64,000 nucleotides of DNA, from the NCBI RefSeq assembly GCF_017348835.2, contig NZ_CP071375.1; one strand, written 5' to 3'. The stretch comes from Escherichia coli (GTDB lineage: Bacteria; Pseudomonadota; Gammaproteobacteria; Enterobacterales; Enterobacteriaceae). Each line of letters begins with the position of its first letter. Position 1 is the stretch's first letter. This document shows positions 10,527 to 37,410 of this stretch, in pieces. The notes below the pieces were generated by a model. That model was given only the letters and a program-made list of their open reading frames with translations. It made no database searches and was not told the origin of the DNA. A program made the position numbers and the translations under genes.

Positions 10527-10674
10527 CAAATTCTCCAGCAATGACAGTTAATGCGCCGATACATTCACAAATCATGCCAGTTTTTAATTCACTGTTATTT
10601 AAGGAAATTAATTTCTATAATGCAGGAAAAAAGATGTCATCGACACTAGTGACGATGACATGTGATGACAATGT

Positions 10675-14948: not shown

Positions 14949-15368
14949 TCAAAGAAACCATTCCGGCTTAACGCCAAATCGGGCTGAAAGTGCCTTAATG
15001 TGGGATATTGTCAGGGATCGTTGTCCAGACAAAATCTGACTAACCAGGGATTTAGAGCCGATTTCGTTCTTCAAATCCGCATAGGTCAGATTATGTTGAT
15101 CAATCAACGTGCGAAGTAACGCCACGCCAACCGGCATTGCCGCAACGGCTTTGTCGAACTCTGCAAACTTTTCGTTGTTGTTTTCATACTCTGCAATGCG
15201 GCTCGCCAGAAAGTCGATAAGTGGATTGGTGTCATCTTCTTCAATCAAATATTCGACCAGTTCCAGTGCTTCACGATAATCATCTTCTGAGTCACTGCCT
15301 CCCAGAAAGGGGACTGCATTGACCAGTTCTCTTGTTGCTTTAACAGCGCGTGCAGCATTAGCAGTCAT
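14949..15368 (-). CDS. HigA-like antitoxin (XRE-family HTH)
   Basis: 139-aa ORF with a C-terminal XRE-type HTH (LTYADLKNEIGSKSLVSQILSGQRSLTISHIKALSARFGV); 4-nt overlap with the upstream toxin-like ORF; resembles chromosomal HigA but sits at a different locus. Confidence 0.75.
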   Translation of the reverse strand: MTANAARAVKATRELVNAVPFLGGSDSEDDYREALELVEYLIEEDDTNPLIDFLASRIAEYENNNEKFAEFDKAVAAMPVGVALLRTLIDQHNLTYADLKNEIGSKSLVSQILSGQRSLTISHIKALSARFGVKPEWFL

Positions 15369-15676
15369 TCTTTGTTCTCTCTGTAGTAACGTGTCAGTTT
15401 GTCATACTCTGCGTGATTCGTTATGTGCTTCACAAAGAACCGCTTATTAACAAAGTTTATGTAGGCAATAACCCTAAGATTGTTCCCGCCGACATCCAGA
15501 ACGTACCATTTGTTGCGATATTTAAAATTGTCGAGGTTGGGAAACGCCGTTCGCATTTCTTCTGGCGTAGAAAAATCCGTTTCCTTAATAACCCGATACA
15601 ATGCCTGAAGAGCCAGAGCGTCGTTAGGATATTTACGCGCAGACTCTTCAAATGGCACTTTAGAAATGATGTGCAT
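15365..15676 (-). CDS. HigB-like (RelE/ParE superfamily) toxin
   Basis: 103-aa basic ORF upstream of, and translationally coupled to, the HTH antitoxin; contains a FPxLDNFKY...VGGN.LRV motif as in HigB-type toxins; toxin-first order typical of HigBA. Confidence 0.7.
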   Translation of the reverse strand: MHIISKVPFEESARKYPNDALALQALYRVIKETDFSTPEEMRTAFPNLDNFKYRNKWYVLDVGGNNLRVIAYINFVNKRFFVKHITNHAEYDKLTRYYRENKE

Positions 15677-15837
15677 TTTTAAGTTTTAACTTCCTTATAG
15701 TAAGTAAACAGCCACATCTGCGAGTTCTATCCTCATGTGTTCGGAAACTATAGCTCATCAAATCCAAGTTCACAATATGTAAACACTTGCGCGTGATATA
15801 ATTACCCCCAAAATCCTCATAACCACTCTGCAAAAAG

Positions 15838-16611
15838 TCAGTTCTGATTCACCCCATCAAGCACATCCCCCTTTATCAAGCAACGCTGCGTCAGCGACAG
15901 ATCTTCCGTTTGTGTGTCGCGCCCGGCGATGGGTTTGAGGACGAGTTTACGGTTGGGGGTATAAGTAAAGCGCGTGAGCGCGGGATAGCTTAACTTGCCA
16001 AACCAGCCGTGAACACGCTGCCATTTGGCGTCTTTTACCTGATACAGACTGGTTATCCAGTAACCAGAATTAAACTGCATATCCAGCAATTGCGTGTGAC
16101 CATTGCCTTGTAAATCCAGCAAATCATCTACGCCAGTTTTGCTTGCAGTGTAGAATCCCCAGGGTTCAAAGACACAGGGACGGCCTTCGTGCGTGAACGT
16201 CATGAGGATTAAATGTGCATAGGGCGCCAGACCATTACCGGCACTTGGCAACCAGATAACCAGATCCTGAATGCCGTTACGATCCAGATCGGCGCGATAG
16301 AGCTGCCCTTTGCCCGCCATATTTGCCAGCAACCCCACTGGCACCGTCCAGGATTTACCCGCGCGGTCTTTAGCGGTTAATTGCCAGTAATCCTCTTCAT
16401 TTGGCATCTTCTCAAGCGTCACGCCAGCAACGCCGATTTTTCTAAAATGCCAAGTTTGCTCGGTATAATAAGGCATGGTCAGGAGAGGTTTCAGCGCCCG
16501 CTTTTGCGCATATTCGCTGCCACTCATTGGCAGATATTCGGTAAAGCTGGTGGCCTGTGCAGACTGCACTAAGCTCAATAAAAAAGCGCACATCCCTGTT
16601 CTGATGTTCAA
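15838..16611 (-). CDS. hypothetical secreted protein with two D-x-D-x-N-G-x-x-D-like motifs
   Basis: 257-aa ORF with a predicted Sec signal peptide (MNIRTGMCAFLLSLVQSAQA); DLDRNGIQDLVIW and DLQGNGHTQLLD resemble FG-GAP/VCBS-type calcium-binding repeats. No family I can name with confidence. Confidence 0.55.
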   Translation of the reverse strand: MNIRTGMCAFLLSLVQSAQATSFTEYLPMSGSEYAQKRALKPLLTMPYYTEQTWHFRKIGVAGVTLEKMPNEEDYWQLTAKDRAGKSWTVPVGLLANMAGKGQLYRADLDRNGIQDLVIWLPSAGNGLAPYAHLILMTFTHEGRPCVFEPWGFYTASKTGVDDLLDLQGNGHTQLLDMQFNSGYWITSLYQVKDAKWQRVHGWFGKLSYPALTRFTYTPNRKLVLKPIAGRDTQTEDLSLTQRCLIKGDVLDGVNQN

Positions 16612-23304: not shown

Positions 23305-23912
23305 TTAGCCTCTCCACTTTGAGCCTGCTGAAACAAGGTGAGATCGCCAAAGTCCGTGTTAAAGGTCAGCTCACGCTTACGTTTGCTGACGCGGGCGATA
23401 TCGGTGTTATCCACCAGATGCAGGGCTTTAGTCGGGCACATCCGCACGCAGGCCGGACCTTGTTCATCAAAGCTACAAAGGTCACATTTGACGGCGATCG
23501 CGCGAATACCTGGCACCCAGTCAAGCAATGTGCTGACACGCGCCGGAGCAGGCGGTGCCGGTGGCGCTTTCGGGGTATTGGCGTTTGCCGGAATATCCAG
23601 CGGACGGCTGCCGGAAAATTCAATTGCGCCAAACGGGCAGGCGATGCCGCACAGTTTGCAGCTTACGCACAGGCTTTCATTCAACTGCACGGCCCCATCA
23701 ACGCGGGTGATGGCGTTAACTGGGCAGACCACCGCGCAGGGTGCATCTTCACAGTGGTGACAGAGCTGCGGCGCAGATTCTTTTTCATTTAGCATCACTC
23801 TCAGGCGCGGCATTGATTGCAGGCCGTGCTGGCGATGCGTCTCTGAACAGGCGGCCTCACAAGTGTGGCAGCCGATACAGAGCGTGGAGTCAGCAATTAC
23901 AAAACGATTCAC
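23301..23912 (-). CDS. hycB: formate hydrogenlyase 4Fe-4S electron carrier
   Basis: 203-aa ORF with four ferredoxin-type Cys clusters. Confidence 0.9.
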   Translation of the reverse strand: MNRFVIADSTLCIGCHTCEAACSETHRQHGLQSMPRLRVMLNEKESAPQLCHHCEDAPCAVVCPVNAITRVDGAVQLNESLCVSCKLCGIACPFGAIEFSGSRPLDIPANANTPKAPPAPPAPARVSTLLDWVPGIRAIAVKCDLCSFDEQGPACVRMCPTKALHLVDNTDIARVSKRKRELTFNTDFGDLTLFQQAQSGEAK

Positions 23913-24036
23913 CAGGCATTCCTCAGGTGATTGTCATTTTTGACGAAAACATGCCGATGAAATGTCATTTTCGACACTCATCGACACGCCCATCCCCAAA
24001 CAGGCGTAACGCCTGCAAAACGGGCAAAGCCTCAGC

Positions 24037-24498
24037 TCATGCTGCCGGGCTTTGTCCCTTTACCAGTTGGCTTAAATTCACCGGCACATTGTTTTCAATG
24101 GCGGTGTATAAGCTGTCGTAAACGCCAGCGATTTTTTCGAGATAGTGTTCCAGAACCTGTTCGCGATCGCGGATGTTGACCTTGCCATCAATCATGCCGT
24201 CAATGCTCAGTTGCGCCTGTGCAATCCGCTGTTTGTCTTCGCCATCTTTTGTTTCGACGTAATACTCGATGATGTGGCTGTTAAAGCCATCCGCCAGGGT
24301 GACGTAAATACGAAAATGTTCAAAAAGGACGAAACAGAGTTCTTTGTCCGGCGCGCAGCTCATGGCGTGATGCAGGCGCGCTTTCGATAACGTGATCCCC
24401 TGAACCAGCGAATTACAGTAGATGTGCCACTGGTCCTGTAGGCGACGATGCCGCTGTGCGATGTAATCGGCTTTCTCGCTTATTTCCCAAATAGTCAT
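24037..24498 (-). CDS. hycA: formate hydrogenlyase regulatory protein
   Basis: 153-aa first gene of the hyc operon, divergent from hypA. Confidence 0.88.
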   Translation of the reverse strand: MTIWEISEKADYIAQRHRRLQDQWHIYCNSLVQGITLSKARLHHAMSCAPDKELCFVLFEHFRIYVTLADGFNSHIIEYYVETKDGEDKQRIAQAQLSIDGMIDGKVNIRDREQVLEHYLEKIAGVYDSLYTAIENNVPVNLSQLVKGQSPAA

Positions 24499-24533
24499 TG
24501 TCAGGTTACCCGTTTAACAGAGATGCCAGCTTT

Positions 24534-24550
24534 AAGCATTTTCTGTGCCA
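24534..24550 (-). promoter_or_regulatory. sigma54 promoter of the hyc operon
   Basis: The minus strand reads TGGCAC-agaaa-ATGCTT, placed 35-50 nt upstream of the hycA start. Confidence 0.5.
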
Positions 24551-24600
24551 ACTTTTAATTCATTGTTATTAAAACGATTTTTAAGCTAAAGATGAATTTC

Positions 24601-24640
24601 GTCGCCGTGTCGACGTGTCATTTCGACATCATCGACATTA
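24601..24640. promoter_or_regulatory. candidate FhlA upstream activating sequence between hyc and hyp
   Basis: Repeated TCGACA/TGTCGAC half-sites (gtcgacgtgtcatttcgacatcatcgacatt) midway between the two divergent sigma54 promoters; assignment to FhlA follows from known regulation of these operons. Confidence 0.45.
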
Positions 24641-24663
24641 TTCACCGCAGGGATAATCAACAC

Positions 24664-24679
24664 TGGCACAATTATTGCT
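24664..24679 (+). promoter_or_regulatory. sigma54 promoter of the hyp operon
   Basis: TGGCAC-aatta-TTGCT, about 30 bp upstream of the hypA ATG (SD GGAGG at 24701-24705). Confidence 0.55.
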
Positions 24680-24709
24680 TGTAGCTGGCAATAGTTAATG
24701 GGAGGCGAT

Positions 24710-25060
24710 ATGCACGAAATAACCCTCTGCCAACGGGCACTGGAATTGATCGAACAGCAGGCCGCAAAACACGGCGCAAAACGCGTAACTGGGGTCTGGC
24801 TCAAAATTGGCGCATTTTCTTGTGTCGAAACCAGCTCTCTTGCCTTTTGTTTTGATCTGGTTTGCCGCGGCAGCGTGGCGGAAGGTTGTAAACTGCACCT
24901 CGAAGAACAAGAGGCCGAATGCTGGTGTGAAACATGCCAACAGTATGTGACGCTACTGACCCAGCGCGTCCGCCGCTGTCCACAGTGTCATGGTGACATG
25001 CTACAGATTGTGGCAGACGACGGTTTACAGATTCGGCGGATAGAAATAGACCAGGAGTGA
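24710..25060 (+). CDS. hypA: hydrogenase nickel insertion protein
   Basis: 116 aa from MHEITLCQ with two C-terminal CxxC pairs (zinc site). The listed ORF starts 4 codons upstream. Confidence 0.9.
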   Translation: MHEITLCQRALELIEQQAAKHGAKRVTGVWLKIGAFSCVETSSLAFCFDLVCRGSVAEGCKLHLEEQEAECWCETCQQYVTLLTQRVRRCPQCHGDMLQIVADDGLQIRRIEIDQE

Positions 25061-28400: not shown

Positions 28401-30479
28401 ATGTCATATACACCGATGAGTGATCTCGGACAGCAAGGGTTGTTCGACATCACTCGGACACTATTGCAGCAGCCCGATCTGGCCTCGCTGTGTGAGGCTC
28501 TTTCGCAACTGGTAAAGCGTTCTGCGCTCGCCGACAACGCGGCTATTGTGTTGTGGCAAGCGCAGACTCAACGTGCGTCTTATTACGCATCGCGTGAAAA
28601 AGACACCCCCATTAAATATGAAGACGAAACTGTTCTGGCACACGGTCCGGTACGCAGCATTTTGTCGCGCCCTGATACGCTGCATTGCAGTTACGAAGAA
28701 TTTTGTGAAACCTGGCCGCAGCTGGCCGCAGGTGGGCTATACCCAAAATTTGGTCACTATTGCCTGATGCCACTGGCGGCGGAAGGGCATATTTTTGGTG
28801 GCTGTGAATTTATTCGTTATGACGATCGCCCCTGGAGCGAAAAAGAGTTCAATCGTCTGCAAACATTTACGCAGATCGTTTCTGTCGTCACCGAACAAAT
28901 CCAGAGCCGCGTCGTTAACAATGTCGACTATGAGTTGTTATGCCGGGAACGCGATAACTTCCGCATCCTGGTCGCCATCACCAACGCGGTGCTTTCCCGC
29001 CTGGATATGGACGAACTGGTCAGCGAAGTCGCCAAAGAAATCCATTACTATTTCGACATTGACGATATCAGCATCGTCTTACGCAGTCACCGTAAAAACA
29101 AACTCAACATCTACTCCACTCACTATCTTGATAAACAGCATCCCGCCCACGAACAGAGCGAAGTCGATGAAGCCGGAACCCTCACCGAACGCGTGTTCAA
29201 AAGTAAAGAGATGCTGCTGATTAATCTCCACGAGCGGGATGATTTAGCCCCCTATGAACGCATGTTGTTCGACACCTGGGGCAACCAGATTCAAACCTTG
29301 TGCCTGTTACCGCTGATGTCTGGCGACACCATGCTGGGCGTGCTGAAACTGGCGCAATGTGAAGAGAAAGTGTTTACCACTACCAATCTGAATTTACTGC
29401 GCCAGATTGCCGAACGTGTGGCAATCGCTGTCGATAACGCCCTCGCCTATCAGGAAATCCATCGTCTGAAAGAACGGCTGGTTGATGAAAACCTCGCCCT
29501 GACCGAGCAGCTCAACAATGTTGATAGTGAATTTGGCGAGATTATTGGCCGCAGCGAAGCCATGTACAGCGTGCTTAAACAAGTTGAAATGGTGGCGCAA
29601 AGTGACAGTACCGTGCTGATCCTCGGTGAAACTGGCACGGGTAAAGAGCTGATTGCCCGTGCTATCCATAATCTCAGTGGGCGTAATAATCGCCGCATGG
29701 TCAAAATGAACTGCGCGGCGATGCCTGCCGGATTGCTGGAGAGCGATCTGTTTGGTCATGAGCGTGGAGCTTTTACCGGTGCCAGCGCCCAGCGTATCGG
29801 TCGTTTTGAACTGGCGGATAAAAGCTCCCTGTTCCTCGACGAAGTGGGCGATATGCCACTGGAGTTACAGCCGAAGTTGCTGCGTGTATTGCAGGAACAG
29901 GAGTTTGAACGCCTCGGCAGCAACAAAATCATTCAGACGGACGTGCGTCTAATCGCCGCGACTAACCGCGATCTGAAAAAAATGGTCGCCGACCGTGAGT
30001 TCCGTAGCGATCTCTATTACCGCCTGAACGTATTCCCGATTCACCTTCCGCCACTACGCGAGCGTCCGGAAGATATTCCGCTGCTGGCGAAAGCCTTTAC
30101 CTTCAAAATTGCCCGTCGTCTGGGGCGCAATATCGACAGCATTCCTGCCGAGACGTTGCGCACCTTGAGCAATATGGAGTGGCCGGGTAACGTACGCGAA
30201 CTGGAAAACGTCATTGAGCGCGCGGTATTGCTAACACGCGGCAACGTGCTGCAGCTGTCATTGCCAGATATTGCTTTACCGGAGCCTGAAACGCCGCCTG
30301 CCGCAACGGTTGTCGCTCAGGAGGGCGAAGATGAATATCAGTTGATTGTTCGCGTGCTGAAAGAAACTAACGGCGTGGTTGCCGGGCCTAAAGGCGCTGC
30401 GCAACGTCTGGGGCTGAAACGCACGACCCTGCTGTCACGGATGAAGCGACTGGGAATTGATAAATCGGCATTGATTTAA
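28401..30479 (+). CDS. fhlA: formate hydrogenlyase sigma54-dependent transcriptional activator
   Basis: 692 aa from MSYTPMSDLGQQG; GAF domains, AAA+ sigma54-interaction domain ([14 protein letters not shown]) and C-terminal HTH. The listed ORF starts 12 codons upstream. Confidence 0.9.
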   Translation: MSYTPMSDLGQQGLFDITRTLLQQPDLASLCEALSQLVKRSALADNAAIVLWQAQTQRASYYASREKDTPIKYEDETVLAHGPVRSILSRPDTLHCSYEEFCETWPQLAAGGLYPKFGHYCLMPLAAEGHIFGGCEFIRYDDRPWSEKEFNRLQTFTQIVSVVTEQIQSRVVNNVDYELLCRERDNFRILVAITNAVLSRLDMDELVSEVAKEIHYYFDIDDISIVLRSHRKNKLNIYSTHYLDKQHPAHEQSEVDEAGTLTERVFKSKEMLLINLHERDDLAPYERMLFDTWGNQIQTLCLLPLMSGDTMLGVLKLAQCEEKVFTTTNLNLLRQIAERVAIAVDNALAYQEIHRLKERLVDENLALTEQLNNVDSEFGEIIGRSEAMYSVLKQVEMVAQSDSTVLILGETGTGKELIARAIHNLSGRNNRRMVKMNCAAMPAGLLESDLFGHERGAFTGASAQRIGRFELADKSSLFLDEVGDMPLELQPKLLRVLQEQEFERLGSNKIIQTDVRLIAATNRDLKKMVADREFRSDLYYRLNVFPIHLPPLRERPEDIPLLAKAFTFKIARRLGRNIDSIPAETLRTLSNMEWPGNVRELENVIERAVLLTRGNVLQLSLPDIALPEPETPPAATVVAQEGEDEYQLIVRVLKETNGVVAGPKGAAQRLGLKRTTLLSRMKRLGIDKSALI

Positions 30480-33717: not shown

Positions 33718-33822
33718 TTATAATTCCCGGTAGAAAAATACTATCGGGAATATTATCTACAGCTGACGAATCAAATAAAAATACCCTGTATAATAGGAAA
33801 GCTTATTTTACAGGGTAAAACC

Positions 33823-34479
33823 ATGCCATCTACACGCTATCAAAAAATCAATGCCCATCACTATCGCCATATATGGGTCGTTGGTGATATTCATGGTGAA
33901 TATCAGTTATTACAATCCCGCTTACATCAACTCTCTTTTTTCCCCGAAACCGACTTACTTATTTCTGTCGGCGATAATATTGATCGTGGGCCGGAGAGTC
34001 TTAACGTCCTGCGCCTGCTAAACCAGCCCTGGTTTATCTCCGTTAAAGGCAACCACGAAGCAATGGCGCTGGATGCGTTCGCGACCGGCGATGGCAATAT
34101 GTGGCTTGCCAGCGGTGGTGACTGGTTTTTCGATTTAAATGATTCAGAGCAAAAAGAAGCTACAGATCTGTTGCTGAAATTCCATCACCTTCCACATATT
34201 ATTGAAATCACTAACGACAACATAAAATATGTCATCGCACATGCAGATTATCCGGGGAGTGAATATCTCTTTGGTAAAGAAATAGCGGAGAGCGAATTAC
34301 TCTGGCCTGTTGATCGTGTGCAGAAATCGCTTAATGGCGAGTTACAACAAATAAACGGCGCTGATTATTTTATATTTGGACATATGATGTTTGATAACAT
34401 TCAGACGTTCGCTAACCAGATTTATATTGATACCGGATCGCCGAAAAGCGGGCGGCTGTCATTTTATAAAATAAAGTAA
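33823..34479 (+). CDS. pphB: serine/threonine protein phosphatase 2 (calcineurin-like)
   Basis: 218-aa ORF with GDIHG, GDxxDRG and GNHE metallophosphatase motifs. Confidence 0.88.
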   Translation: MPSTRYQKINAHHYRHIWVVGDIHGEYQLLQSRLHQLSFFPETDLLISVGDNIDRGPESLNVLRLLNQPWFISVKGNHEAMALDAFATGDGNMWLASGGDWFFDLNDSEQKEATDLLLKFHHLPHIIEITNDNIKYVIAHADYPGSEYLFGKEIAESELLWPVDRVQKSLNGELQQINGADYFIFGHMMFDNIQTFANQIYIDTGSPKSGRLSFYKIK

Positions 34480-34483
34480 TGAG

Positions 34484-34518
34484 GCCGGGTAAAGCAAAGC
34501 CACTACCCGGCACTTTTT
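34484..34518 (+). terminator. rho-independent terminator after pphB
   Basis: gccgggta-aagcaaagccac-tacccggc stem-loop followed by cacttttta, 5 nt after the pphB stop and abutting the stop of the convergent small-subunit gene. Confidence 0.55.
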
Positions 34519-34519
34519 A

Positions 34520-34756
34520 TTAGCGCTTACCTTCCGCCAGCAGCGGCGGGATGCTCGGCACCATTGGCGCGTCATCAATATCTTTCTGCGTCATGCGGAA
34601 CGCTTCGGGATAATGTTCGCGGCTGGTACGGCGCAGCGGTTCGGTATCGCGCCAGGTATAAAGGCAATGCTGGCACTGATATACCGTCCAGACATCTTTC
34701 ACCGGCGATTTCGCCATCACTTCAATCTGTTCATCGGCACAACGTGGACAAATCAT
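34520..34756 (-). CDS. ecdD: hydroxyarylic acid decarboxylase small subunit (VdcD/KpdD-like, Cys-rich)
   Basis: 78-aa ORF with CPRC...CQHC zinc-ribbon-like Cys pairs directly downstream of the UbiD-like gene; the O157-type mutS-rpoS segment is known to carry a 78-codon ORF here. Confidence 0.7.
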   Translation of the reverse strand: MICPRCADEQIEVMAKSPVKDVWTVYQCQHCLYTWRDTEPLRRTSREHYPEAFRMTQKDIDDAPMVPSIPPLLAEGKR

Positions 34757-34766
34757 CTTGTTCTCC

Positions 34767-36194
34767 TTATTTACGTGCGGCCAGCATAGCGGTCAGTTTT
34801 TCAGCCCAGGCTTTGGTTTCCGGCAAATCCACCACCGGCTGGCTGTAGTGACCACGGTTGTCCGGGGCGACAGGCGTGGTGGCGTCGATAATCAGCTTGT
34901 CGGTGATCCCCGCCTGGCTTGAGCCAGGGTCGAGTTCCAGCACGGACATATTCGGCAACTGCACCAAATCCCCTGCCGGATTTACTTTCGAGGAGAGCGC
35001 CCACATCACCTGCGGCAGGTTGAACGGGTCAACGTCTTCATCGACCATAATCACCATCTTTACGTAGCCCAGACCGTGCGGCGTGGTCATCGCACGCAGG
35101 CCCACCGCGCGGGCAAAGCCGCCGTAGCGTTTTTTGGTGGAGATAATCGCCAGCAGGCCGTGGGTGTACATGGCGTTTACCGCCTGCACTTCCGGGAACT
35201 CGGCTTTCAGTTGTTGATACAGCGGCACGCAGGTGGCAGGCCCCATCAGGTAGTCGATTTCGGTCCACGGCATGCCGAGGTACAGCGATTCGAAAATCGG
35301 CCTGGTGCGGTAAGAGACTTTATCGATGCGCACCACGGTCATGTTACGCCCGCCGGAGTAGTGTCCGGTAAACTCACCGAACGGCCCTTCGATTTCGCGT
35401 TTACGGCTTTCGATGACCCCTTCGAGGATCACTTCTGAACCCCACGGCACATCAAAACCGGTCAGCGGGGCGGTGGCGATCGGGTACGGGCTTTCACGCA
35501 GCGCGCCTGCCATTTCATACTCAGACTGATCGTATTTCAGCGGCGTGGCCCCCATCAGCGTGATGATCGGATCGTTACCGAGCGTGATCGCAATCGGCAG
35601 ATCTTCACCGCGCTCTTCTGCTTTATGCAGATGCAGGGCGATATCGTGCATCGGCACCGGTTGCAGGCCGAGCTTACGCTTGCCCTTCACTTCCATGCGG
35701 TAGATGCCGACGTTCTGCTTGCCGAAGTTATCCGGGTCGAGCGGATCGCGGGAAACCACGCAGGCTTTGTCGAGATAGAAACCGCCATCGCCATCGTTTA
35801 AACGAAACAGCGGCAGGATATCGAACAGGTTAATCTCGTCGCTATCAACGGTGTTCTGCGCCCAGGCAGGATTGGCGCGGCGCTCCGGGGCAATCGGGAA
35901 GTTATCCCAGCGGCGGATAAACTCATCAATCTGCTTTTTGACCGGGGTGTTTGGTGGCAGGCCAAGGGAAATCGCGTGGTTCTGCCAGGAACCGATGGTA
36001 TTCATCGCCACGCGGGCATCGGTAAAGCCGCGAATATTATCAAACCACAGCGCGGGCGCGCCGTCGCCGATACGCCCGGTGGCGTTAGCTGCTGCTGCCA
36101 GATCCGGTTCCGCGTTCACCTCTTCGCTGATTTTCAGTAACTGGCCGTGGTCATCAAGCGCCTGTAAAAAGCTGCGTAAATCATCAAATGCCAT
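34767..36194 (-). CDS. ecdC: UbiD-family reversible hydroxyarylic acid decarboxylase, large subunit
   Basis: 475-aa ORF of UbiD length and layout; middle gene of a ubiX-ubiD-small-subunit operon. Confidence 0.8.
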   Translation of the reverse strand: MAFDDLRSFLQALDDHGQLLKISEEVNAEPDLAAAANATGRIGDGAPALWFDNIRGFTDARVAMNTIGSWQNHAISLGLPPNTPVKKQIDEFIRRWDNFPIAPERRANPAWAQNTVDSDEINLFDILPLFRLNDGDGGFYLDKACVVSRDPLDPDNFGKQNVGIYRMEVKGKRKLGLQPVPMHDIALHLHKAEERGEDLPIAITLGNDPIITLMGATPLKYDQSEYEMAGALRESPYPIATAPLTGFDVPWGSEVILEGVIESRKREIEGPFGEFTGHYSGGRNMTVVRIDKVSYRTRPIFESLYLGMPWTEIDYLMGPATCVPLYQQLKAEFPEVQAVNAMYTHGLLAIISTKKRYGGFARAVGLRAMTTPHGLGYVKMVIMVDEDVDPFNLPQVMWALSSKVNPAGDLVQLPNMSVLELDPGSSQAGITDKLIIDATTPVAPDNRGHYSQPVVDLPETKAWAEKLTAMLAARK

Positions 36195-36787
36195 TATTCA
36201 TTCTCCTGAGAAAAATTCCGGGCCTGCGGCAATCCTTGCCAGCGCCTGGCGTGGGGATGTTCGAGGCCAAATTGATCCAGCACGCGGGCTACCACATGGT
36301 GGACAATGTCATCTACCGTTTCGGGATGGTTATAAAAGGCAGGCATCGGCGGCACCATCGCCACGCCCATGCGTGAAAGTGCGAGCATATTTTCGAGATG
36401 GATGGTGCTAAGCGGCATTTCACGCGGCACCAGCACCAGTTTGCGGCCTTCTTTGAGCACGACGTCCGCCGCGCGCCCTACCAGGCCATCAGCGTAACCA
36501 GCGCGGATACCGGCGAGCGTTTTCATACTGCACGGAATAACGATCATGCCGTCGGTACGAAAAGAACCTGAGGAGATGGTCGCCGCCTGATCCGCCGGTT
36601 TATGGCTGAAGTCAGCGAGGGCAGCAACATCGCGGGCGCTGTAAGGCGTTTCCAGTTCAATGGTGGTTTTCGCCCACTTCGACATCACCAGATGAGTCTC
36701 GACATTCGGCATCTCCCGCAGCGCTTGCAGTAATGCCACACCAAGAGGCGCACCGGTAGCCCCTGTCATCCCGACGATCAGTTTCAT
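36194..36787 (-). CDS. ecdB: UbiX/Pad1-family flavin prenyltransferase
   Basis: 197-aa ORF starting MKLIVGMTGATGAPLG (flavoprotein fold); stop overlaps the ecdC start. Confidence 0.8.
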   Translation of the reverse strand: MKLIVGMTGATGAPLGVALLQALREMPNVETHLVMSKWAKTTIELETPYSARDVAALADFSHKPADQAATISSGSFRTDGMIVIPCSMKTLAGIRAGYADGLVGRAADVVLKEGRKLVLVPREMPLSTIHLENMLALSRMGVAMVPPMPAFYNHPETVDDIVHHVVARVLDQFGLEHPHARRWQGLPQARNFSQENE

Positions 36788-36933
36788 TGCTTACTCTCTT
36801 AATTGTTCGTATACGAACGTTATTGTTAACATACTCCTTCATTTCCACAGCGGCAAGGATTGAAAAGTAACAACATCTTCTTCGTCACTAAAAAACCGCT
36901 ATGATAGCGACAGAGAATTAGCCCGGAGTTTAC

Positions 36934-37341
36934 ATGGCGTTACGAAAAAAAGCGTTCCATCAGTTACGACAGCTTTTTCAGCAGCACACGGCTCGCTGGC
37001 AGCACGAGTTACCTGACCTGACCAAACCACAGTATGCGGTGATGCGCGCCATTGCTGATAAGCCTGGTATCGAACAGGTGGCACTGATAGAAGCAGCAGT
37101 CAGCACCAAAGCAACGTTGGCAGAAATGTTGGCAAGAATGGAGAATCGTGGCTTAGTCAGACGTGAACATGATGTCGCTGACAAGCGGCGTCGCTTTGTC
37201 TGGCTGACTGCCGAAGGAGAAAAGATACTTGCTGCGGCGATACCGATTGGTGACAGCGTGGATGAGGAATTTTTGGGGCGTTTGAGTGTAGAAGAGCAGG
37301 AGCTGTTTATGCAGTTGGTGCGCAAGATGATGAGCACATAG
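36934..37341 (+). CDS. MarR/SlyA-family transcriptional regulator
   Basis: 135-aa ORF with a winged-helix MarR-like core, divergently oriented from the decarboxylase operon. Confidence 0.75.
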   Translation: MALRKKAFHQLRQLFQQHTARWQHELPDLTKPQYAVMRAIADKPGIEQVALIEAAVSTKATLAEMLARMENRGLVRREHDVADKRRRFVWLTAEGEKILAAAIPIGDSVDEEFLGRLSVEEQELFMQLVRKMMST

Positions 37342-37410
37342 AATGCTGATTGCCGGGTAGGACGCTGACGTGTCTTATCCAGGCGACAAAAACACAAGCT
37401 TCCCAAACAA

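What the first reader, a model, noticed from the sequence alone, without database searches (positions are those of the whole stretch)
24499..24709. Divergent sigma54 promoters with a shared candidate FhlA UAS between hyc and hyp
TGGCAC-N5-ATGCTT on the minus strand (toward hycA) and TGGCAC-N5-TTGCT on the plus strand (toward hypA) flank a block of TCGACA/TGTCGAC repeats. This is the expected formate regulon control region and looks intact.
Basis: partly seen in the sequence, partly recalled or inferred. Interest (0 to 1): 0.2.

Follow-up and report, generated by a model that had tools for sequence, protein, structure and literature searches.

The report
Known E. coli hyc–hyp control region
This is the textbook switch region of E. 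coli that turns on hydrogen-producing (formate hydrogenlyase) genes in both directions when formate accumulates; it is intact and ordinary here, with one correction: a second copy of the activator-binding element lies 660 bases away inside the hyc operon.

Summary
The 211-bp hycA–hypA intergenic region (24499–24709) holds the only two matches in 64 kb to TGGCAC-N5-WTGCT. They point in opposite directions: 24550→24535 on the minus strand toward hycA, and 24664→24679 on the plus strand toward hypA. Between them lies a block of TCGACA-type repeats.

The window is an E. coli chromosome. The region differs from K-12 MG1655 at four bases, none in a −24 GG, a −12 GC or the repeat block. Both motifs are the exact sites that published K-12 σ54 ChIP-seq lists as experimentally confirmed promoters.

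The repeat core at 24612–24638 is 81% invariant across 12 lineages of Escherichia, Salmonella, Citrobacter and Intestinirhabdus. The flanking spacers are 4–14% invariant. Its half-motif TCAT(1–4)CGWCA recurs at two other formate-regulon sites in the window, and fhlA is intact.

One correction: "shared UAS" is not established. A near-identical, equally conserved second copy sits in the hycA–hycB spacer (23932–23986). As I recall the 1990s literature, which I could not retrieve, the intergenic copy serves hyc and the second copy serves hyp.

Verdict: already known, low interest.

The parts
24534..24550 (-). hyc operon sigma54 promoter, TGGCAC-AGAAA-ATGCTT (-24 GG at 24549-48, -12 GC at 24537-36). 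The predicted transcription start is about 24524.
   Evidence: It aligns to the K-12 site TTGGCACAAAAAATGCT, which has a sigma54 ChIP-seq peak (FAT 91) and is EcoCyc-confirmed (PMC4591121). The single difference from K-12, at 24543, lies in the N5 spacer.
24664..24680 (+). hyp operon sigma54 promoter, TGGCAC-AATTA-TTGCTT. The predicted transcription start is about 24690.
   Evidence: It is identical to the K-12 site CTGGCACAATTATTGCT, which has ChIP-seq FAT 201 and is EcoCyc-confirmed. Applying that paper's rule for predicting start sites reproduces its distances to the gene starts (26 and 20 nt).
24595..24638 (.). UAS-1, the FhlA enhancer candidate. Left part: AATTTCGTCGCCGTGTCGAC. Conserved core 24612-24638: GACGTGTCATTTCGACATCATCGACAT. 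The core centre lies at -101 from the hyc start and -65 from the hyp start.
   Evidence: It is identical to K-12. In the core, 22 of 27 positions are invariant in 12 lineages of 4 genera, against 4-14% in neighbouring spacers. It contains CATTTCG, a half of the published FhlA consensus CATTTCGTACGAAATG. The half-motif TCAT(1-4)CGWCA is enriched at formate-regulon sites.
24556..24568 (-). IHF-like site TAACAATGAATTA (consensus WATCAANNNNTTR, one mismatch) in the AT-rich stretch between the hyc -24 element and UAS-1.
   Evidence: A site of this form sits at the same offset in 8 of 13 aligned sequences. IHF dependence of hyc and hyp is stated in PMC2636881. The exact footprint was not retrievable, so this is a candidate only, and its centre at -38 is close to the promoter.
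23932..23986 (.). UAS-2, a second FhlA-enhancer-like element in the hycA-hycB spacer: TGTCATTTTTGACGAAAACATG...TGTCATTTTCGACACTCATCGACA. Its centre lies at -731 from the hyp start and +565 from the hyc start.
   Evidence: D5. It is 22/25 identical to the UAS-1 core, differing by two single-base indels. It is strongly conserved across Escherichia, Salmonella, Citrobacter and Intestinirhabdus, while the rest of the spacer is not. At 23935 it holds an 11/16 match to the published 16-mer consensus.
24499..24524 (-). hycA leader (5' untranslated region); 21 of 26 positions are invariant across the 12 lineages.
24037..24498 (-). hycA (153 aa), the first gene of the hyc operon and an antagonist of FhlA.
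24710..25060 (+). hypA, the first gene of hypABCDE-fhlA, with RBS GGGAGG at 24700-24705.
28401..30479 (+). fhlA, the sigma54 enhancer-binding activator. It is intact (692 aa) and carries the GAFTGA motif.

Best explanation
This is the canonical formate-regulon control region of E. coli. RNA polymerase carrying sigma54 sits in closed complexes on two back-to-back -24/-12 promoters. One drives hycABCDEFGHI leftward and the other drives hypABCDE-fhlA rightward. FhlA, encoded 3.7 kb downstream in the hyp transcript, binds the conserved TGTCATTTCGACATCATCGACA-type enhancer. When formate binds FhlA, the protein uses ATP hydrolysis to open the promoter complexes. An IHF-induced bend in the AT-rich stretch helps the enhancer-bound activator reach the hyc promoter. 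A second enhancer copy in the hycA-hycB spacer belongs to the same system. The most likely wiring is that the intergenic copy (UAS-1, -101 from hyc with the IHF-like site in between) serves hyc, and the distal copy (UAS-2, -731) serves hyp. Shown here: the motifs, their identity to K-12, their conservation, the second copy and the intact fhlA gene. Taken from literature: sigma54 occupancy, FhlA and formate dependence, and IHF involvement. Inferred or recalled: which enhancer serves which promoter.
For: Both sigma54 motifs are unique in the window and diverge from each other. The region is identical to K-12 apart from 4 neutral-looking SNPs. K-12 sigma54 ChIP-seq peaks fall on exactly these motifs, which are flagged as confirmed promoters activated by FhlA (PMC4591121). 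Salmonella ChIP-chip and microarray data show the same two promoters with the same 113-nt separation (PMC3844500). The region is present in 5425 of 5426 complete E. coli genomes. The UAS-1 core is 81% invariant across four genera. UAS-2 is 22/25 identical to the UAS-1 core and equally conserved. The half-motif occurs 9 times against 1.56 expected, and 6 of the 9 lie in the hydN, hycA-hycB and hyc-hyp control regions. CATTTCG matches half of the published FhlA consensus. fhlA is intact. There is no excess of sigma70-like promoters. [quoted passage not shown] That fits UAS-2 mattering but does not prove it.
Against: No binding or expression data exist for this strain. UAS-1 does not match the idealised published 16-bp palindrome as an ungapped 16-mer: its best match is below 10/16, and 74 sites in the window reach 10/16 or more. 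Recognition therefore rests on half-sites and conservation. The promoter-anchored genome scan selected for the -24/-12 motifs, so their conservation in that alignment is partly circular. The assignment of UAS-1 to hyc and UAS-2 to hyp comes from my memory of papers I could not open. The IHF-like match is centred at -38, closer to the promoter than is typical.
Confidence: 0.93

Rival explanations
1. One reading: a single shared enhancer. FhlA bound at UAS-1 activates both divergent promoters, and the hycA-hycB element is dispensable or does something else.
For: UAS-1 lies between the two promoters, at -101 from hyc and -65 from hyp. The distance from the UAS-1 core to the hyp -24 element is held at 46-48 nt in all 13 sequences. 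That fits a constraint linked to hyp as well as to hyc.
Against: A second conserved copy exists and needs an explanation. A core centred 65 nt from the hyp start, only about 25 nt upstream of the -24 element and with no bend site in between, is unusually close for an enhancer-binding protein; typical positions are about 70-150 bp upstream (PMC3844500). My recollection of the primary literature assigns hyp to the distal UAS.
Confidence: 0.2
2. Cooperative two-enhancer model. FhlA oligomers at UAS-1 and UAS-2 act together, looping out hycA, and each promoter needs both elements for full output.
For: The two copies have the same orientation and the same paired half-site design, and both are conserved. 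Replacing hycA and the spacer weakened hyc expression.
Against: There is no direct evidence. The weakened expression in that strain has other possible causes, such as the fusion construct or an altered leader.
Confidence: 0.15
3. The repeat block is a chance cluster or a binding site for a different regulator (for example ModE, named in the literature as a secondary activator of hyc), not the FhlA enhancer.
For: The block matches the idealised FhlA palindrome poorly. ModE is cited as a secondary activator of hyc (PMC2636881).
Against: The same motif pair recurs at hydN and hycA-hycB, both in the FhlA regulon. The core is 81% invariant across genera. The block is identical to the K-12 region, for which FhlA-dependent activation is established.
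Confidence: 0.03

Closest known systems
E. coli K-12 MG1655 hycA-hypA intergenic region (b2725/b2726), the formate regulon control region
   Same: The gene order, the 211-bp length, both -24/-12 elements, the whole UAS block, the hypA RBS and the hycA leader are the same. Identity is 207/211.
   Different: There are four substitutions: 24543 C instead of T (second base of the N5 spacer of the hyc promoter; the C allele is also seen in E. albertii, the E69 lineage and E. whittamii), 24561 C instead of T, and 24574-75 CG instead of GA, all in the AT-rich stretch.
Salmonella enterica hycA/hypA sigma54 promoters (STM2853/STM2854)
   Same: A divergent pair, TGGCATGGAAAATGCTTA and TGGCATAAATATTGCTTT, with the same 113-nt separation in LT2. 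The UAS core TGTCATTTCGTCATTGTCGACAT is conserved in S. diarizonae.
   Different: The -24 element is TGGCAT rather than TGGCAC. The spacers have diverged, and S. diarizonae has 2 nt fewer between the UAS and the hyp promoter.
hydN-hypF and fdhF FhlA-dependent promoters
   Same: Each has a sigma54 promoter with an upstream cluster of (T)CAT..CGWCA / TTTCGTCA repeats. hydN in this window has its promoter at 10579..10564(-) and motifs at 10637 and 10650. The K-12 fdhF upstream region was read.
   Different: These are single promoters, not divergent pairs. The fdhF repeats are of the TTTCGTCA type and lack the TCAT prefix.
Generic bEBP/sigma54 enhancer architecture with IHF (for example glnHp2, nifH, Pu)
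   Same: A -24/-12 promoter, an enhancer about 100 bp upstream, and an AT-rich IHF-type bend site in between.
   Different: Here two promoters lie back to back around one enhancer, and a second enhancer copy lies inside the transcribed operon.

Membership tests
sigma54 (-24/-12) promoter | GG and GC dinucleotides exactly 10 nt apart within TGGCAC-N5-TTGCW | tested here: met
   Both sites meet this. The hyc site has ATGCT at -12, as in K-12.
sigma54 (-24/-12) promoter | Correct orientation and a short distance to the downstream gene | tested here: met
   The predicted starts lie 26 nt upstream of hycA and 20 nt upstream of hypA. These equal the published K-12 values.
sigma54 (-24/-12) promoter | Occupancy by sigma54 holoenzyme and RpoN-dependent transcription | not testable with these tools
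   This is shown for the identical hyp site and the one-SNP hyc site in K-12 by ChIP-seq, by gSELEX, and in Salmonella.
FhlA upstream activating sequence | Sequence identity to the characterised K-12 UAS region | tested here: met
   24576-24709 is identical to K-12.
FhlA upstream activating sequence | Match to the published consensus CATTTCGTACGAAATG (Leonhartsberger 2000, as quoted in PMC4987338 and bioRxiv 2024.02.19.581074) | tested here: inconclusive
   Only half-sites are present in UAS-1 (CATTTCG at 24619-25, AATTTCG at 24595-601), and no ungapped 16-mer reaches 10/16. UAS-2 has an 11/16 match at 23935. The consensus does not discriminate in this window, where 74 sites reach 10/16 or more.
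FhlA upstream activating sequence | Motif shared with other formate-regulon control regions and conserved across species | tested here: met
   TCAT(1-4)CGWCA occurs 9 times against 1.56 expected, and 6 of the 9 lie in three FhlA-regulated regions. The core is 81% invariant in 12 lineages.
FhlA upstream activating sequence | Physical binding of FhlA | not testable with these tools
   The primary footprinting papers are not held.
IHF binding site | WATCAANNNNTTR located between the enhancer and the promoter | tested here: inconclusive
   TAACAATGAATTA at 24568..24556(-) has one mismatch. A site of this form is present at the same offset in 8 of 13 sequences. Its centre at -38 is closer to the promoter than is typical.
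Single enhancer shared by two divergent promoters | One UAS is necessary for both promoters and there is no other UAS | tested here: not met
   A second conserved UAS copy exists at 23932-23986. Whether each UAS is necessary for each promoter cannot be tested here.

The most novel reading that the evidence does not exclude
The two enhancer copies flanking hycA (UAS-1 and UAS-2, about 660 bp apart, same orientation) and the two mirror-image promoters form one looped FhlA nucleoprotein complex in which each promoter needs both enhancers. Separately, the almost invariant 26-nt hycA leader is an undescribed post-transcriptional control element for the anti-activator HycA. Neither idea is excluded by the data here, and neither is supported beyond conservation.
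Probability: 0.1. Interest if true: 0.3.

Novelty: already known. Interest (0 to 1): 0.06.

Why it matters
It matters little. This is a core-genome regulatory region, present in 5425 of 5426 complete E. coli genomes, whose promoters, activator and effector were worked out in the 1990s and re-confirmed by genome-wide sigma54 mapping. The useful outcomes are practical. First, the annotation of this window can carry the two promoters, both enhancers and the predicted start sites with confidence. Second, the strain's four SNPs do not touch functional positions. Third, anyone engineering hyc or hyp expression, for example by replacing hycA, should remember the second enhancer in the hycA-hycB spacer.

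Tried and rejected
(1) I scanned the window with the published idealised FhlA palindrome CATTTCGTACGAAATG. With up to 3 mismatches it hits only an unrelated site at 1898. As a match count it does not single out UAS-1. I rejected it as a detector and used half-sites and conservation instead.
(2) A MAFFT alignment of the four UAS regions (hyc-hyp, hycA-hycB, hydN, fdhF) was uninformative because repeat copies were mis-registered. I replaced it with a pairwise alignment of the cores.
(3) I tried to retrieve the primary papers and reviews: Hopper & Böck 1995 (PMC176951), Skibinski 2002 (PMC135417) and Bush & Dixon 2012 (PMC3429621). None is held. Full-text searches for the UAS location or the hycA-hycB site found nothing relevant.
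(4) An Rfam scan of 23700-24900 gave only a noise-level miRNA hit with E = 0.88. No known RNA element is present.
(5) The sigma70-promoter and terminator scan found no more than chance. The 'terminator' at 24600-24615 is just the CGTCG...CGACG symmetry of the UAS.
(6) I looked for a sigma54 promoter in front of hycB in the hycA-hycB spacer. CGGCATGTTTTCGTC has no GC at the -12 position, so I rejected it by eye from the sequence.
(7) About 23 of the 38 genome-scan hits were not hyc-hyp homologues, at about 60% identity, which is alignment background. I excluded them.

Full report
What is there. The finding covers 24499-24709. This is exactly the non-coding DNA between hycA (24037-24498, minus strand) and hypA (ATG at 24710, plus strand). 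The window is an E. coli chromosome. The segment 24000-25100 is 100% identical to strains PE164 and F2_81 and is found in 5425 of 5426 complete E. coli genomes. The 211-bp intergenic region alone is at least 90% identical in every one of those genomes.

Checking the observation. The plus strand reads AAGCATTTTCTGTGCCA at 24534-24550, which is TGGCAC-AGAAA-ATGCTT on the minus strand pointing at hycA. It reads TGGCAC-AATTA-TTGCTT at 24664-24680, pointing at hypA. The pattern TGGCACNNNNNWTGCT has exactly these two matches in the 64 kb, against 0.11 expected from shuffles. Between them lie TGTCGAC (24608) and three TCGACA hexamers within 30 nt. At the window-wide density this cluster has a corrected probability of about 0.006.

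The region aligns to MG1655 (NC_000913.3) without gaps and with four substitutions. The first is 24543 C/T, the second base of the N5 spacer of the hyc promoter. The others are 24561 C/T and 24574-75 CG/GA, all in the AT-rich stretch. No substitution touches a -24 GG, a -12 GC, the repeat block, the hyp promoter or the hypA ribosome-binding site. The C allele at 24543 also occurs in E. albertii, E. whittamii and another Escherichia lineage, so it is a natural polymorphism.

Genome-wide sigma54 ChIP-seq in K-12 (Bonocora et al. 2015, PMC4591121) lists TTGGCACAAAAAATGCT(-) for hycA and CTGGCACAATTATTGCT(+) for hypA. The fold-above-threshold values are 91 and 201, and both are flagged as experimentally confirmed in EcoCyc. 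That paper predicts the start site 19 nt from the motif centre. Applying the same rule here gives starts at about 24524(-) and about 24690(+), which lie 26 and 20 nt from the start codons. These are the same numbers as in the paper's table. gSELEX also finds RpoN holoenzyme binding in this spacer (PMC8743547). Salmonella ChIP-chip and microarray data show the homologous divergent pair with the same 113-nt separation and FhlA as activator (PMC3844500). The -24/-12 elements therefore do not 'fall elsewhere'.

The enhancer. One scan of species-representative genomes was anchored on the two promoter motifs. It returned hyc-hyp regions from Escherichia (several species), Salmonella diarizonae, Citrobacter (several species) and Intestinirhabdus. 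Across 12 lineages, the segment 24612-24638 (GACGTGTCATTTCGACATCATCGACAT) has 22 of 27 invariant positions. The AT-rich stretch has 14%, the spacer between the UAS and the hyp promoter has 4%, and the hyp leader has 14%. Conservation of the promoter hexamers in this set is partly circular, because the scan selected for them. Conservation of the UAS is not circular.

The block contains CATTTCG (24619-24625) and AATTTCG (24595-24601). These are halves of the FhlA consensus CATTTCGTACGAAATG attributed to Leonhartsberger et al. 2000 (quoted in PMC4987338, and in bioRxiv 2024.02.19.581074). As an ungapped 16-mer that idealised palindrome fits poorly: UAS-1 stays below 10/16, while 74 sites in the window reach 10/16 or more. 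An empirical half-motif, TCAT(1-4)CGWCA, discriminates better. It occurs 9 times in the window against 1.56 expected. Six of the nine fall in pairs in three control regions of the formate regulon: upstream of hydN (10637, 10650), in the hycA-hycB spacer (23965, 23978) and in the region studied here (24618, 24629). The fdhF upstream region of K-12 carries related TTTCGTCA repeats. fhlA itself is intact in the window (28401-30479, 692 aa, GAFTGA present).

A second enhancer copy. The hycA-hycB spacer holds TGTCATTTTTGACGAAAACATG...TGTCATTTTCGACACTCATCGACA at 23932-23986. Its right half matches the UAS-1 core at 22 of 25 aligned positions, differing only by two single-base insertions. It has the same orientation. 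It is nearly invariant across the same four genera, while the rest of that spacer is unalignable.

UAS-1 is centred at -101 from the hyc start, with an AT-rich stretch and an IHF-like site in between. That site is TAACAATGAATTA at 24568..24556(-), with one mismatch, present at the same offset in 8 of 13 sequences. This is the classical geometry for an enhancer-binding protein. From the hyp start UAS-1 is centred at only -65, about 25 nt from the -24 element, whereas UAS-2 lies at -731.

As I remember the primary work (Schlensog et al. 1994; Hopper et al. 1994; Leonhartsberger et al. 2000, 2002), FhlA binds both elements. The intergenic one activates hyc with the help of IHF, and the hycA-hycB one activates hyp. 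I could not open these papers or find the statement in the held library. The assignment is therefore my recollection and not a tool result. One indirect hint comes from an engineered strain in which hycA and the downstream spacer were replaced. [quoted passage not shown]

Mechanism. The steps established in the literature for this sequence in K-12 are as follows. Sigma54 holoenzyme occupies both promoters in closed complexes. FhlA, activated by formate, hydrolyses ATP to open them. HycA counteracts FhlA. IHF is required for full expression. The steps shown here are that every cis element and fhlA are present and unaltered in this strain, that the enhancer is under strong purifying selection, and that it exists in two copies. 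The wiring of the two enhancers to the two promoters is inferred. No sigma70-like promoter excess and no known RNA family compete with this reading.

Verdict. The feature is already known and ordinary, and interest is low.

Noticed in passing
window 23932-23986: There is a second FhlA-enhancer-like element in the hycA-hycB spacer. It is 22/25 identical to the intergenic UAS core and conserved across four genera.
   Followed up: yes
window 24524-24550 and 24664-24690: The two promoters are 27-nt mirror images with 21/27 complementary positions. The match extends past the -12 element to a shared AGCTGGCA at the predicted start sites. This part is only loosely kept in Salmonella and Citrobacter.
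   Followed up: partly
window 24499-24524 (minus strand): The hycA leader (AUCUCUGUUAAACGGGUAACCUGACA before the AUG) has 21 of 26 positions invariant across Escherichia, Salmonella, Citrobacter and Intestinirhabdus. That equals the enhancer core and far exceeds the hypA leader (14%). The reason is unknown, and there is no Rfam match.
   Followed up: partly
window 10564-10660 (minus strand): The hydN-hypF sigma54 promoter TGGCATGATTTGTGAA is identical to K-12. Upstream of it lies a pair of TCATCGWCA motifs forming the palindrome TGTCGATGACA. This is presumably the hydN FhlA enhancer.
   Followed up: partly
window 14949-16611: Three ORFs lie between ascB and hycI (139, 103 and 257 aa, minus strand). 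In the 100%-matching strain PE164 they are annotated as an HTH antitoxin, a HigB-family toxin and a hypothetical protein. As far as I recall, K-12 has no such insert here.
   Followed up: no
L027 (Citrobacter sp. MGH106), hyc-hyp intergenic region: A 12-nt deletion, about one helical turn, removes the left part of UAS-1 (TTTCGACGCC) but keeps the core and the promoter spacing on the hyp side.
   Followed up: no
L007, L010, L012, L016, L023, L025, L030, L035, L040 (rumen Lentisphaeria/Victivallales-type MAGs): The promoter-pair scan also picked up an unrelated conserved family. It has divergent TGGCATGTTTTATGCT and TGGCACGGGATTTGCT sigma54-like promoters about 113 nt apart, flanking three TTACA-N5-6-TGTAA inverted repeats. 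This looks like an analogous divergent sigma54 control region with its own enhancer. The flanking genes were not examined.
   Followed up: no
window 33800-37400 (from L002 annotation): The mutS-rpoS interval carries pphB, a three-gene hydroxyarylic acid decarboxylase cluster and a MarR-family regulator. From my own knowledge, this is a variable region among E. coli strains.
   Followed up: no
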